Shown piece by piece: positions 57,501 to 60,500 of a stretch of DNA of 64,000 nucleotides. The stretch is from Ginglymostoma cirratum. Lineage: Eukaryota. The stretch is taken from assembly GCA_024137785.1 (NCBI GenBank), contig JAHRHZ010000092.1, positions 10,857,693 to 10,921,692 on the forward strand. The letters are read 5' to 3'. Position 1 is the stretch's first letter. Every line of letters begins with the position of its first letter. The position numbers were made by a program.

Positions 57501-60500
57501 AGTGCAACTCAGGATCTAACTGGAAGAAAATATAGAATAAATTTTATTTTTAATACCATATAAATCTAAAACCAAGTACATTATTCATTTTGTCCTCTAC
57601 TCACTAAGTTTCAGTGCGTCATCTGAGACTGCACATTATCTGCCGGGGCCTTGAAGTCTGAGTTGTAGTTTGAAACTGCCACTCACATACACAGTCTGTT
57701 AAACAGATTTCTAAGAGGCCGGTGAATTATTTGGACTTGATTATCTTCATTTGGCAGAATGATTCCATACATCTCTGAGACAGCAAGGTAAACTTTCACC
57801 TTCAAAGATAGGATGATAGAAGTAGGTATTTTTATCCATTTGCATCCCCAGAAATTGCTATCCCTTGATCATTTGGCTCAGTTACATTCAAATGATATTA
57901 TCTCCATATCAATATCACTGCTTTGCAAATCAAACACCTGATGGAATTTGGTAGCCAAACAATGTCTACCTGAAGGAATGGATGAGATAAACATGACAAT
58001 TTGTTCCATCATGTCCAATGCCTGAAATTGCCTGTTAATTCCTCCAATTTCAAGAGTTCAGAGGTTTCCTAGGACGAAGCGTTCTTGTCTGATTTTTTCT
58101 AGTATTTCCTTCACACTCAAAGTACTTGCGTTTTGTTTTATAATTGGAAGACTGCAGACAGCATTTTGATTTGAGTGCATTCACAGCACTGATCATAAGT
58201 TTTTGTCCTTTTCATGAAGTTCTCAGTTCAGCTTGTTCAGTTTTGACATTATATGTGTGTGGAACCAGAAGTTGAACAACCACTGCATGCGTCATTCCTT
58301 GTTTTAAGAAAAGTGACAATTTCAGGCATGGAGGATTTGTCCACTGTGGGTAGCACTGAGTTCATTGAGAGATTGTGGGAACTGCTGATGCTGGAGTCTG
58401 AGATAAGGTGCGGAGCTGGATGAACACAGCAGGCCAGGCAGCGTCAGAGGAGCACGGAAGCTGACGTTTCGGGTCTGGACCCTTCTTCTGAGATTTCAGA
58501 AATGAGGTACAACTCAGATGCTTAATTGTATTTTTTTTTAAAATTATGGCATCATAGATTGGACAGTTAAGATGGCCTACCTTTCACTCAGGATCTTTAC
58601 AGCATGTGAACCCTAAGTGGGCATTTCAAAGCCACTTGCTGATGAATGTAGCTTCCCCTTACTCTGGCACACTCGATCCATAAGGTCTCAGGGACAGCTG
58701 GGAAGTAAACCTACCAGTAGGGGACTCTCTTTTGTAAAAGAGAGTCAAAGGATAAGCAGATGCAGACACATCATACCCAATACAGTCATCCAGCTCCACA
58801 CTGAGTTCATTCAGCAAGGATTTAAACAAGTGGTGCTGAAGAGCTCTTGTTCAGATTCGGCTTACAATCTTTACAACAGAAAAGTCCATAACGTTACTTG
58901 ATAATACTTGCTGCTGGATCTTATAGTGGCAATTACCAAAAGAAGAAAAATCAGAATAACTTCTGCATAATTCAACAAAGTCTACATTTGCACAGCATAT
59001 GGCTGCTGCATCCTCAGGAGTGATGGAGGCCTATATCTTGATTGGAATGCTTTTCCAAGCATGTACTTTTTGAATTTGCTGTAAAGATCCTTACCACTTG
59101 TTGTCTCTTTAAGGGGCAAAAGGATGAGAATGTCTTTATCAGATTATGCGCTTAAAAATCATGTGCGTAAAAGTAATCAGCTGGGCTGTGCTGGTTATGT
59201 TGACTGATTCATTGAACTGTAGAGAGAAACATTCATAGTCCTTCATAGCCTGCTGTAGTTGCTGAATGATGTCATCAGACAAATATTTTACTCGTCTTAC
59301 TACTGTGAACACCTGTGACACGCTCGGATATTATTTTTGCTTCTTCTTTGTCCTTAACGTATTTGAAAAAAGAGTCAGCAGCCACATCACTGCTTCCTTA
59401 AATACTTCATCAACTTTGAATGATTTCTGGTCAAAACAGAGTCAGGTAGAGAGATCAACCATCAGAGACTTTGCAACCTACATGTTAGAGATCACTGAAT
59501 TAAGAAAACTCAATTCTGAAATAAACTTCGGCTTGTGACATTCTACACTGCATTTGGAAGCTGAACTGTACACAGTGCTCTTCAACCCCAGAGACTCAAT
59601 GCTGGATTTGTCAGAAAACTGTCAGCACAAACAACAGAAAGAAGATCTTTACTTGTCCCCTCTCAGAGAAAAAAATCTTGTTTTGGAAGGCACAGGAACA
59701 GTTCAGAGAAGCATAAATAAGTCTTAAATAGAAGTTTCAAAGACAGCAGCTAAGCAAAGTGCCATTTTGGACAAGGAATGCAGAAGTTTATGCATGATAC
59801 ACTACCCATAATACACAAAATATGTGCCATTGGTAAAAGGTTTTCAGTCAAATTAAACATGCTCAAGTAATTAGGATTTAATTTTTCAACAACTTGAATT
59901 TTTTTTTATTAGGTTTAAAACATTTGCATTATCAAAAGTAGTGAAGTATTCTTCTGGGAATAAAGCACAAATCATATGTTTAAACATTATGCCAATACAT
60001 TTCTGGCATGATATTGTTAAGTTGTCATTTCAAATTAATCCCATTGCCATTATCAGTGACAAAGATGTAACCGTTAGAATTTGGCTGGTCTGAGAAAGTT
60101 CTTTGAAAACAAAAACAATTTTATTTGAACAGAGGTAAAGAGAGAAAATTACCAATGTTGAAAATATACGTGTCAATACCTACAAAATGACAAGCTAACA
60201 CTTCAGGTATCTTTTGATTCAATCCATGATTGTACAGCCAGCCAGAAGCTCAAGTTGAAAAAGAATTAAAGAAACAGAACTAAAATCTTCGAAACGTTCT
60301 GATTTTCATTCAGCATGAGGGAATAAGACATTTCACGTGTTTGAGAATCTCAACGCATAATGCAGACATAGGATGCCTCTGGGGAATGTGCTGAGTTCTG
60401 GAGCCTGTTAGAGAGGGAGCACAGCTGGGGTAACTTCGTTGGAGCTCTTTGGTGGCTATTGCTGCCTCAGGACTCAATCCTAAAATTTCAGCTGGTAACC

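What the first reader, a model, noticed from the sequence alone, without database searches (positions are those of the whole stretch)
58354..58811. Fold-back PLE insert that captured ~290 bp of neighbouring host intron
Seen: TSD (cactgagttcatt), then a ~135-bp PLE terminal arm ending at the hammerhead-like motif, then a diverged direct copy (58504-58787) of 56364-56658 lying ~2.1 kb away, then a short inverted arm (catccagctccacac) running into the second TSD. All of it interrupts a hAT transposon. Known: non-LTR RTs can switch templates. Inference: during one integration the PLE RT jumped at the ribozyme position onto local DNA or nascent ARHGAP35 pre-mRNA and then back, making a local cis-capture rather than a classic 3' transduction. 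This would be a mechanism for duplicating intronic or regulatory DNA. A CTCF-like ccagtagggg lies in a block identical in both copies.
Basis: partly seen in the sequence, partly recalled or inferred. Interest (0 to 1): 0.75.

Follow-up and report, generated by a model that had tools for sequence, protein, structure and literature searches.

The report
Penelope-like insert carrying nearby intron copy
A 432-bp retrotransposon insertion in a shark ARHGAP35 intron carries, between its normal end pieces, a roughly 290-bp copy of host DNA that lies 2.1 kb away, most likely picked up when a polymerase switched templates during integration; it is a tidy single case of a known kind of accident, not a new kind of element.

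Summary
A perfect 13-bp duplication (58354-58366, 58799-58811) brackets a 432-bp insert: a Penelope-like element (PLE) 3' end (tail, arm, decayed minimal hammerhead), about 288 bp that is 90% identical to 56360-56658, and a 16-nt inverted PLE piece. The insert interrupts a decayed transposase-like ORF.

It is not a fold-back element. The 16-nt piece ends at the family's usual tail-less terminus. A full PLE copy in the same window (14601-16045) has the same kind of inverted cap, so no jump back is needed.

The captured block sits where a normal copy has PLE sequence upstream of the hammerhead. The junction lies in a short stretch shared by PLE and host. The block has the sense of ARHGAP35 (minus strand), as a pre-mRNA template requires.

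Not settled:
- RNA versus DNA template.
- Capture at integration versus later repair.
- Genome-wide copy number of the block, as no shark genome was available.

The CTCF-like motif is at chance level. Template-switch chimeras are known for LINEs. My two literature searches found no PLE case with a nearby donor. Verdict: real, a new variant of a known kind, moderate interest.

The parts
58354..58366 (.). Left copy of the 13-bp target-site duplication. It ends in ATT immediately before the PLE tail.
   Evidence: Exact 13-mer found only here and at 58799-58811. ATT is the preferred cleavage motif of a lizard PLE (PMC11167929, main text). Only 1 of the 3 duplication-bounded copies in this window has it.
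58367..58407 (-). PLE 'tail': a 41-nt extension present at this end only. It is the 3' end of the element's sense (minus) strand.
   Evidence: Alignment A2: the tailed arms of four copies share it and the tail-less arms lack it. A 30-40 bp one-sided tail is described in PMC8557442 and PMC11167929.
58408..58507 (-). PLE arm body with a decayed minimal hammerhead on the minus strand, about 58463-58499. The core box is altered, and an extra block of about 9 nt near 58489-58497 is absent from four other copies. The last 8-13 nt (58495-58507) overlap the start of the host-derived block.
   Evidence: BLAST to nine family segments. Alignments A2 and A3. Coordinates. An intact minimal-hammerhead pattern is found in family copy 8-34, with 0 expected by chance. 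No Rfam hammerhead hit.
58500..58787 (+). Copy B: the captured host-derived block. It is co-linear with copy A. In the element's sense orientation it is sense to the host gene.
   Evidence: Pairwise alignment: 254/282 identical, 8 gaps. It is the only other copy in the window.
58723..58746 (.). A 24-nt perfect palindrome inside copy B. Copy A (56592-56613) has a non-palindromic sequence at this point. This cluster of differences looks like a snap-back or quasi-palindrome templated change.
   Evidence: Self inverted hit (query 384-407 against 58746-58723). Coordinates. Alignment.
58786..58801 (+). 16-nt inverted, tail-less PLE cap. It overlaps copy B by 2 nt and the right duplication by 3 nt.
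   Evidence: Inverted pair I9, 94% complementary. It ends at the family's tail-less terminus. A comparable 46-nt cap is on copy 14601-16045.
58799..58811 (.). Right copy of the target-site duplication.
56360..56658 (+). Copy A: the presumed donor in the same intron, 2.1 kb away. A run of ten A lies at its low-coordinate edge (ten U at the 3' edge in host-sense RNA). No PLE arm is adjacent.
   Evidence: No arm homology beside it.
57688..59306 (-). Decayed transposase-like ORF (DUF4371 / SPIN-DOC-like, hAT-type by recall) that the insert interrupts.
   Evidence: tblastn of fish protein P0002 (UniRef A0A3Q1GPL9): aa 139-307 to 59306-58779 and aa 459-482 to 57759-57688. With the insert and one duplication copy removed, one HSP runs through the junction in a single frame, aa 139-310, 88.2 against 80.9 bits.

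Best explanation
One Penelope-like element (PLE) integration produced a chimeric insert.

Proposed steps:
1. The PLE endonuclease cut both strands of a decayed transposase-like sequence 13 bp apart.
2. The top-strand end primed reverse transcription at the outer start site of a PLE RNA. This made the tail, the arm and the hammerhead region (58367 to about 58507).
3. Just 5' of the hammerhead core, in a short stretch where PLE and host sequences resemble each other, the polymerase left the PLE template. It continued for about 290 nt on host sequence from 2.1 kb further along the same ARHGAP35 intron. The most likely template is host-sense RNA whose 3' edge here is a U-run.
4. The bottom-strand end primed at the inner start site and made only 13-16 nt. 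That is the inverted, tail-less cap.
5. The two products were joined at a 2-nt overlap.

Shown here: the anatomy, the single duplication, the PLE identity of the family, the normality of the cap and tail, the polarity, and the absence of a PLE arm next to the donor.

Inferred: that a reverse transcriptase did the switching, that the second template was RNA, and that everything happened in one event.
For: Single event:
- A perfect 13-bp duplication encloses everything.
- The interrupted ORF reads on in frame once the insert and one duplication copy are removed.

PLE identity of the arm family:
- Sister copy 14601-16045 carries the same tail and arm about 180 nt downstream of an ORF.
- That ORF matches a whale-shark protein (P0036) over aa 111-462 at E 4e-93.
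- The sister copy has its own 9-bp duplication.
- An intact minimal-hammerhead pattern occurs in family copy 8-34, with 0 expected. Its features match those listed in PMC4209133 (parts 1-2 of 4 of the text read).

The cap is normal:
- The sister copy ends in a 46-nt inverted tail-less arm.
- Tail-less ends of four copies fall within 0-7 nt of one another.
- The literature describes an adjacent inverted 5'-truncated copy and a 30-40 bp tail at one end (PMC8557442, passages).
- It also describes cleavage and extension of both strands from two start sites (PMC11167929, main text).

Position of the block: it lies exactly where the sister copy has PLE sequence upstream of the hammerhead.

Junctions: 8-13 nt of shared similarity at the arm side and 2 nt at the cap side.

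Other template-switch-like scars in copy B:
- A 24-nt palindrome is absent from copy A.
- An extra 9-nt block in the hammerhead core includes an 8-mer identical to one in the tail.

Polarity: the RhoGAP exons read on the minus strand, so the block is host-sense within the element's sense strand.

Local origin:
- There are only two copies in 64 kb.
- A real dispersed repeat at 62209-62520 shows seven other matches under the same search.

Precedent: LINE chimeras with one and two template switches flanked by one duplication (PMC2104539, abstract). PLEs retrotransposing host genes in trans are mentioned in PMC8557442 (passage).
Against: - Copy number of the 290-bp block in the genome could not be checked. 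No eukaryotic genome collection was available.
- This is a single case. The window has one other insertion with an assessable interior. A third has its interior masked.
- The arm-side junction is ambiguous. Its first bases also resemble divergent PLE copy 1-45, whose continuation lies outside the window. The block could therefore be native to an unseen PLE subfamily.
- Nothing distinguishes an RNA from a DNA template. The polarity match had a 50% prior.
- If the block was made from the bottom-strand product instead, the template would be antisense to the host gene.
- For human LINE-1, chimeras are reported to arise by RNA ligation before reverse transcription rather than by template jumping (statement in PMC8857657, passage read).
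- The hammerhead in this copy is decayed. No Rfam model supports it.
- Whether 56-59 kb is truly intronic rests on the large 5' exon not being in the window. The longest of the 155 listed ORFs of at least 75 aa is 293 aa. 150 of the 155 were scanned, with p190-type (RhoGAP) hits only at the two RhoGAP exons.
Confidence: 0.5

Rival explanations
1. Later DNA repair. An ordinary hairpin-type PLE insert, like 3046-3237 or 9980-10622, sat here first. Its palindrome broke at the centre and most of the tail-less arm was lost. The gap was then filled by microhomology-mediated, DNA-templated synthesis copied from 2.1 kb away. A related version places DNA-templated gap filling by host repair at the end of the original integration.
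For: - Two of the PLE copies in the window are near-perfect hairpins whose arms meet at the same point where the block begins here.
- Both junctions show microhomology.
- The donor is near and on the same chromosome.
- The short templated-looking scars (palindrome 58723-58746; the 8-mer shared with the tail) are also typical of repair polymerases. This last point is from established knowledge of templated insertions and is recalled, not read here.
Against: - It needs two events where one suffices.
- The sister copy 14601-16045 shows that a short inverted cap next to a long interior is a primary product of PLE insertion. No earlier hairpin is therefore needed.
- Divergence of A and B (about 10%) is not clearly lower than divergence between arms (about 14%). 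The test has little power.
Confidence: 0.2
2. The 290-bp block is not a local capture. It is either a dispersed repeat or abundant cellular RNA copied in trans, or the native upstream sequence of a PLE subfamily. On this view the closeness of copy A is coincidence.
For: - Shark introns are repeat-rich (general knowledge).
- The first bases of the block also resemble PLE copy 1-45, whose continuation cannot be seen.
- The low-coordinate edge of copy A is an A-run. In host sense this is a U-run, like the end of a discrete RNA.
- Copy number could not be tested genome-wide.
Against: - There are only two copies in 64 kb, 2.1 kb apart and co-oriented. A true dispersed repeat in the same region gives seven further matches under the same search.
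- No PLE arm or PLE protein homology lies next to copy A.
- The sister PLE's upstream sequence is unrelated to the block.
- No Rfam family matches in 55000-60500 at E up to 10.
- There is no unusual RNA folding, z -0.76.
Confidence: 0.15
3. A chimeric RNA existed before reverse transcription. A host intron fragment was joined to the 5' end of a short PLE RNA by RNA ligation or splicing, and the PLE enzyme copied it straight through.
For: - LINE-1/U6 chimeras are reported to arise by RNA ligation before reverse transcription (statement in PMC8857657, passage read).
- Both parts have the same sense.
Against: - The junction is at least 39 nt 5' of the predicted hammerhead cleavage site. The ribozyme's 5'-OH end was therefore not the ligation point.
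- No GT splice donor follows the host-sense end of copy A (reading).
- The imperfect shared similarity at the junction suits copy choice better than end ligation.
Confidence: 0.08
4. Assembly artefact or chance arrangement.
For: PLE inverted structures are known to trouble assemblies (PMC8557442, passage). A masked or gap run lies inside another PLE copy at 10096-10495.
Against: - The two copies differ at 28 sites and 8 gaps.
- The duplication is exact.
- The interrupted ORF is restored in frame.
- There is no N in or near the insert.
Confidence: 0.02

Closest known systems
Template-switch chimeric retrocopies made by LINE enzymes (bipartite and tripartite chimeras; PMC2104539, abstract read)
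   Same: Pieces copied from different templates are fused in one orientation. The retroelement's 3' part lies at the priming end. The whole is enclosed by one target-site duplication. Switching occurs at preferred sites in the first template.
   Different: - The enzyme family here is a PLE, not a LINE, and there is no poly(A).
- The second template is not a known abundant small RNA. It is intron sequence from 2.1 kb away at the same locus.
- An inverted PLE cap closes the 5' end.
Canonical PLE insertion architecture (PMC8557442 passages; PMC11167929 main text)
   Same: Heavy 5' truncation, a 30-40 bp tail at one end only, an inverted 5'-truncated copy at the 5' end, a variable-length duplication, and a minimal hammerhead in the terminal repeat.
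   Different: Foreign host-derived DNA stands in place of the element's own upstream sequence, between the main copy and the cap.
LINE-1 3' and 5' transduction
   Same: Host DNA is moved together with a retroelement end.
   Different: Transduction needs the source element to abut the transduced DNA. Copy A has no PLE arm beside it. That defining feature is not met.
Microhomology-mediated templated insertions in DNA repair (MMBIR / FoSTeS type; recalled, not read here)
   Same: A nearby donor, microhomology at both junctions, and small templated scars.
   Different: Here the block is embedded between the two regular ends of a transposon insertion and inside its target-site duplication.
Animal non-LTR retrozymes, non-autonomous PLE derivatives (bioRxiv 10.64898/2026.07.22.740005, abstract read; PMC7229834, listing only)
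   Same: A short PLE-derived unit with a hammerhead motif and no coding capacity.
   Different: Retrozymes are tandem repeats thought to move through circular RNA. This is a single unit with a duplication, an inverted cap and a host-derived interior.

Membership tests
Penelope-like element (endonuclease-positive), 5'-truncated insertion | The family encodes a reverse transcriptase with a C-terminal GIY-YIG endonuclease | tested here: met
   The insert itself is too truncated to show this. Sister copy 14601-16045 shares the same tail and arm. Its ORF remnant matches P0036 over aa 111-462, E 4e-93. P0036 has GIY-YIG at 23.2 bits (cut-off 22.6) and RVT_1 at 22.7 bits, below its 29.6 cut-off. Of the 3 shark proteins scanned, 1 passed the GIY-YIG cut-off.
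Penelope-like element (endonuclease-positive), 5'-truncated insertion | Minimal hammerhead motif in the terminal repeat | tested here: inconclusive
   The pattern is intact in family copy 8-34, with 1 match and 0 expected. In the insert the core box is altered and carries an extra block of about 9 nt. There is no Rfam hammerhead hit in the window.
Penelope-like element (endonuclease-positive), 5'-truncated insertion | 30-40 bp tail at one end only | tested here: met
   A 41-nt tail at 58367-58407 is absent from the cap end.
Penelope-like element (endonuclease-positive), 5'-truncated insertion | Inverted 5'-truncated copy adjoining the 5' end | tested here: met
   16-nt cap at 58786-58801. The comparator has a 46-nt cap.
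Penelope-like element (endonuclease-positive), 5'-truncated insertion | Target-site duplication of variable length | tested here: met
   13 bp here, 9 bp at copy 14601-16045, and 12-13 bp at copy 9980-10622. None was found for 3046-3237.
Template-switch chimeric retrocopy | Segments from different templates, in the same orientation, inside one target-site duplication | tested here: met
   The PLE part and the host block are both minus-sense.
Template-switch chimeric retrocopy | The 5' part is a copy of a discrete cellular RNA | tested here: inconclusive
   No Rfam family matches and folding is unremarkable, z -0.76. The donor edge at a U-run in host sense is suggestive only.
Retroelement transduction (3' or 5') | The source element is directly adjacent to the transduced sequence | tested here: not met
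   No arm or PLE protein homology flanks 56360-56658.
Fold-back element / MITE | Long terminal inverted repeats forming most of the element | tested here: not met
   The inverted repeat is 16 nt of 432, and the ends are asymmetric, with a tail on one side only.
hAT transposon (the interrupted element) | hAT transposase homology | tested here: inconclusive
   - The flanks match fish proteins named SPIN-DOC-like zinc-finger and DUF4371.
- DUF4371 was seen only below its cut-off, in P0011.
- None of the 20 window ORF pieces scanned gave a hAT Pfam domain. The hit proteins scanned gave none either.
- The link of DUF4371 to hAT is recalled.
hAT transposon (the interrupted element) | 8-bp target duplication and short terminal inverted repeats | tested here: not met
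   A script search for a perfect 8-bp duplication with at least 11/16 inverted termini spanning the insert found none. Decay could hide them.
CTCF binding site | A match to the core consensus better than chance | tested here: not met
   There are 2 mismatches to a 14-nt consensus recalled from memory. The window holds 12 such matches against 8.84 expected, and 15 of 100 shuffles reach 12.

The most novel reading that the evidence does not exclude
PLE integration complexes working inside an actively transcribed gene can jump from the short PLE template onto the nascent host pre-mRNA of the same locus, here at a U-run 2.1 kb downstream. This writes a sense copy of intron sequence back into the gene. 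It would be a cis-acting, RNA-mediated way of duplicating intronic or regulatory DNA locally. It could be recurrent in PLE-rich genomes such as sharks.
Probability: 0.18. Interest if true: 0.65.

Novelty: new variant of a known kind. Interest (0 to 1): 0.4.

Why it matters
The mechanism of PLE integration is poorly known. The first in vitro system dates from 2024 (PMC11167929). This insert is a natural product in which the two regular ends (tail-bearing and tail-less) are separated by foreign DNA. It records what the polymerase did after leaving the PLE template. It also supports the view that the two ends are made independently from the two target strands.

If captures from nearby DNA prove recurrent and host-sense, PLEs would join LINEs as shufflers of host sequence, but with a local reach. 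That would bear on how introns in PLE-rich vertebrate genomes gain duplicated segments. As a single old event with an untested copy number, it is at present a good lead and not a discovery.

Tried and rejected
- Rfam hammerhead models: no hit in 55000-60500 at E up to 10, nor in the whole window at E up to 1.
- Pfam on 20 minus-strand ORF pieces around the insert: nothing relevant.
- One search failed because one piece was too short.
- Word-indexed protein search with the 63-aa piece 59139-59330: no hit. The exhaustive search then gave 35 hits, best E 1.4e-09.
- hAT termini: none found.
- Splice-mediated chimera: rejected. No GT donor follows the host-sense end of copy A.
- Read-through or transduction from a PLE next to copy A: rejected. 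No arm is there.
- Ribozyme-cleaved RNA end as the junction: rejected. The junction is at least 39 nt 5' of the predicted cleavage site.
- Copy A as a structured RNA gene: no support.
- The arm RNA also folds no better than shuffles, z 0.51.
- CTCF site: chance level. The 31-nt identical block around it is not unusual at 90% identity (my estimate).
- Literature: searches found no paper describing PLE chimeras with captured host DNA. One search found no paper on shark PLE structure. One search failed on term length and was not repeated.
- Not done: the two RhoGAP exons were searched one by one. The joined spliced model was left out.
- Not done: the N run at 10096-10495 was left unfilled.
- Not checked: genome-wide copy number, orthologous sites in other sharks and long reads. 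The only collection open to the scanning tools is prokaryotic.
- Supplementary files of the papers were not consulted. The hammerhead alignments in the supplements of PMC4209133 might bear on the motif assignment.
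Full report
WHAT IS THERE

The 13-mer named in the finding occurs exactly twice in the window, at 58354-58366 and 58799-58811. The 432 bp between the two copies consist of four parts.

- Part 1, 58367 to about 58507. This belongs to a repeat family with nine other segments in the window at 72-91% identity.
- Part 2, 58500-58787. This aligns in direct orientation with 56360-56658. 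There are 254 matches, 28 mismatches and 8 gaps, which is 90.1% identity and K2P 0.108.
- Part 3, 58786-58801. This 16-nt piece is complementary to 58408-58423 in 15 of 16 positions.
- Part 4. Small overlaps join the parts: 2 nt between the copy and the 16-mer, and 3 nt between the 16-mer and the right duplication.

A sensitive self-comparison of 54-64 kb against the whole window finds no third copy of the 290-bp block. The same search gives seven further matches for a true dispersed repeat at 62209-62520.

THE REPEAT FAMILY IS A PENELOPE-LIKE ELEMENT

A longer family member lies at 14601-16045 on the same strand as the insert.
- It has its own 9-bp duplication, at 14592-14600 and 16046-16054.
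- About 180 nt beyond its arm, its minus strand encodes a protein remnant. The remnant matches a whale-shark protein (P0036) over residues 111-462 at E 4e-93.
- P0036 carries a C-terminal GIY-YIG domain at 23.2 bits (cut-off 22.6). It also has a reverse-transcriptase match at 22.7 bits, below the 29.6 cut-off.
- Of the three shark proteins scanned, one passed the GIY-YIG cut-off, one was just below it and one had no hit.
- Six of the 16 hits carry a precomputed RVT_1 domain.

RT followed by GIY-YIG is the defining PLE architecture (PMC8557442, PMC11167929). The element's sense strand is therefore the window's minus strand. The arm is its 3' end.

On that strand the family carries the features listed for PLE minimal hammerheads in PMC4209133 (parts 1-2 of 4 of the text read):
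- a core box;
- one extra nucleotide before a long helix II;
- a GAAA box;
- a two-base palindrome instead of helix III.

A strict pattern for this motif matches family copy 8-34, with none expected by chance. In the insert the core box is altered. It also holds an extra block of about 9 nt that four other copies lack. Rfam finds no hammerhead anywhere in the window. 'Hammerhead-like' is fair, but the motif is decayed.

THE SHORT INVERTED ARM IS A REGULAR PLE FEATURE

Aligning all arms in one orientation shows two kinds of end.
- One kind has a 41-nt extension. In the insert this is 58367-58407.
- The other kind stops 0-7 nt after a fixed point. This holds for the insert's 16-mer, the right end of 3046-3237, the left end of 9980-10622 and the right end of 14601-16045.

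The full-length-type copy 14601-16045 ends in a 46-nt inverted, tail-less arm that abuts its truncated RT.

This agrees with what is described for PLEs. An inverted 5'-truncated copy lies next to the 5' end, and a 30-40 bp tail is often present at one end only (PMC8557442, passages). The lizard element PAc cleaves and extends both target strands. It starts reverse transcription at two adjacent internal sites, and the tail is the sequence between them (PMC11167929, main text).

The left duplication ends in ATT immediately before the tail. ATT is the preferred PAc cleavage motif. Only 1 of the 3 duplication-bounded copies in the window shows it.

The insert is therefore not a fold-back element, and no jump back onto the PLE template is needed. 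The 16-mer is best read as a very short product primed from the other target strand.

WHERE THE HOST BLOCK SITS

In copy 14601-16045 the sequence 5' of the hammerhead is the element's own spacer and ORF. In the insert the host-derived block occupies that place.

The junction is not sharp. Bases 58495-58507 resemble other PLE copies, while homology to copy A begins at 58500. The switch therefore took place within 8-13 nt of imperfect shared similarity. That is at least 39 nt 5' of the predicted cleavage site, so it is not at the ribozyme's cut.

In host-sense RNA the donor edge is a run of ten U.

Copy B carries two further small scars.
- A perfect 24-nt palindrome at 58723-58746 has no palindromic counterpart in copy A.
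- An 8-mer in the extra hammerhead block is identical to one in the tail.

Both scars suit a switch-prone polymerase. They could also be later replication errors.

CONTEXT

Two minus-strand ORFs carry RhoGAP domain segments.
- 38557-38868 matches Pfam profile positions 46-84.
- 34024-34380 matches profile positions 120-147.
- Searched one exon at a time, both match ARHGAP35 chains better than ARHGAP5 chains. The E-values are 3e-16 against 1.8e-09 and 1.8e-30 against 5.9e-23.
- The joined spliced model was not built or searched.

The gene therefore runs on the minus strand, and 56-59 kb lies upstream of these exons. The gene's large 5' exon is not in the window. The longest of the 155 listed ORFs of at least 75 aa is 293 aa. 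150 of the 155 were scanned, with no other p190-type domain found. The locus is thus inferred, not shown, to be intronic.

Within the element's sense strand the captured block is host-sense. A pre-mRNA template for the tail-primed cDNA would need this polarity. The prior for that match was 50%.

The insert interrupts a decayed minus-strand ORF.
- It matches fish proteins named SPIN-DOC-like zinc-finger (P0002) and DUF4371-containing (P0003).
- With the insert and one duplication copy removed inside a script, the alignment to P0002 runs through the junction in one frame. It covers residues 139-310 at 88.2 bits, against 80.9 bits before removal.
- No hAT Pfam domain, terminal repeat or 8-bp duplication was found.
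- The hAT label therefore rests on my recollection that DUF4371 proteins are hAT-derived.

MECHANISM

The best-supported account is a single PLE integration. The tail-primed cDNA left the PLE template just 5' of the hammerhead. It continued for about 290 nt on host sequence from the same intron and was joined to a 13-16-nt product from the other strand. I put this at about 0.5.

Points in favour:
- one duplication encloses the whole block;
- both ends are regular PLE ends;
- the host block sits at the position expected for PLE upstream sequence;
- both junctions show microhomology;
- the polarity matches;
- the donor is nearby and has no adjacent PLE arm;
- there is precedent for single and double template switches in LINE chimeras flanked by one duplication (PMC2104539, abstract);
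- PLEs are noted to act on host RNAs in trans (PMC8557442, passage).

Points against, or unresolved:
- copy number is untested;
- nothing tells RNA from DNA as template;
- the block could have been made from the other strand's product, which would need an antisense template;
- LINE-1 chimeras are reported to come from RNA ligation, not jumping (PMC8857657, passage).

Rivals and their confidence:
- later or concurrent DNA-templated repair of a hairpin insert, 0.2;
- a dispersed repeat, an abundant RNA or PLE-native sequence, with the proximity by chance, 0.15;
- a pre-formed chimeric RNA, 0.08;
- an artefact, 0.02.

SIDE CLAIMS

The CTCF-like match has two mismatches to a consensus I recalled from memory. 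The window holds 12 such matches against 8.84 expected. Identical runs of about 31 nt are not unusual at 90% identity.

The host block shows no Rfam match and no unusual folding, z -0.76.

NOVELTY AND SCORE

Template-switch chimeras and host-sequence shuffling are well known for LINEs. PLE architecture with tail and inverted cap is also known.

I did not find in print a PLE insertion whose interior is a copy of host DNA from a few kilobases away. I rate this a new variant of a known kind, real, but a single old event whose key control (genome copy number) could not be run. Interest is 0.4.

The boldest reading not excluded is a jump onto the nascent host pre-mRNA as a recurrent local duplication mechanism. 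I give it about 0.18, and it would merit about 0.65 if true.

Noticed in passing
window 14592-16054: A 5'-truncated Penelope-like element with RT and GIY-YIG remnants on the minus strand (16004-14926). It has a tail and arm at 14601-14728, a 46-nt inverted tail-less cap at 16003-16048, and a 9-bp target duplication. It served as the comparator for the finding.
   Followed up: yes
window 9967-10635: A PLE hairpin or tandem unit bounded by a 12-13 bp duplication (9967-9979, 10623-10635). The 400-base N run (10096-10495) lies inside it, so its interior cannot be assessed. The N run was left unfilled.
   Followed up: partly
window 3046-3237: A 192-bp PLE hairpin with two arms meeting near the hammerhead and no visible duplication. 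It gives a sub-threshold Rfam match to microRNA precursor family mir-1791 on both strands (39.7 and 35.8 bits against gathering 75). Some annotated hairpin RNAs may be PLE-derived, or the model may pick up PLE hairpins.
   Followed up: no
window 18842-20009, 48351-50482, 50902-51852: Further PLE protein remnants (tblastn with P0036, E 9e-18 to 3e-7). The first is followed by a partial arm at 19961-20009. The last two face each other on opposite strands and lack the arm family. They may belong to another PLE lineage.
   Followed up: no
window 62209-62520: A dispersed, SINE-like repeat with seven other matches in the window: 13602-13791, 19352-19607, 8214-8292, 16056-16118, 16182-16288, 2272-2308 and 34767-34801, at 68-86% identity. 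Two of these lie immediately beside the PLE at 14601-16045.
   Followed up: no
window 34024-34380 and 38557-38868 (minus strand): Two exons of the RhoGAP domain of an ARHGAP35 orthologue. They match solved ARHGAP35 chains better than ARHGAP5 chains. They were searched exon by exon only.
   Followed up: partly
window 4508-5550 (minus strand): Weak reverse-transcriptase (RVT_1) matches below the Pfam cut-off in two ORFs (20.6 and 17.7 bits), about 1.3 kb from the 3046-3237 hairpin. The type of retroelement was not determined.
   Followed up: no
window 58723-58746 versus 56592-56613: Copy B has a perfect 24-nt palindrome where copy A has a non-palindromic sequence. This is a clustered change of the kind made by snap-back templating.
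   Followed up: partly
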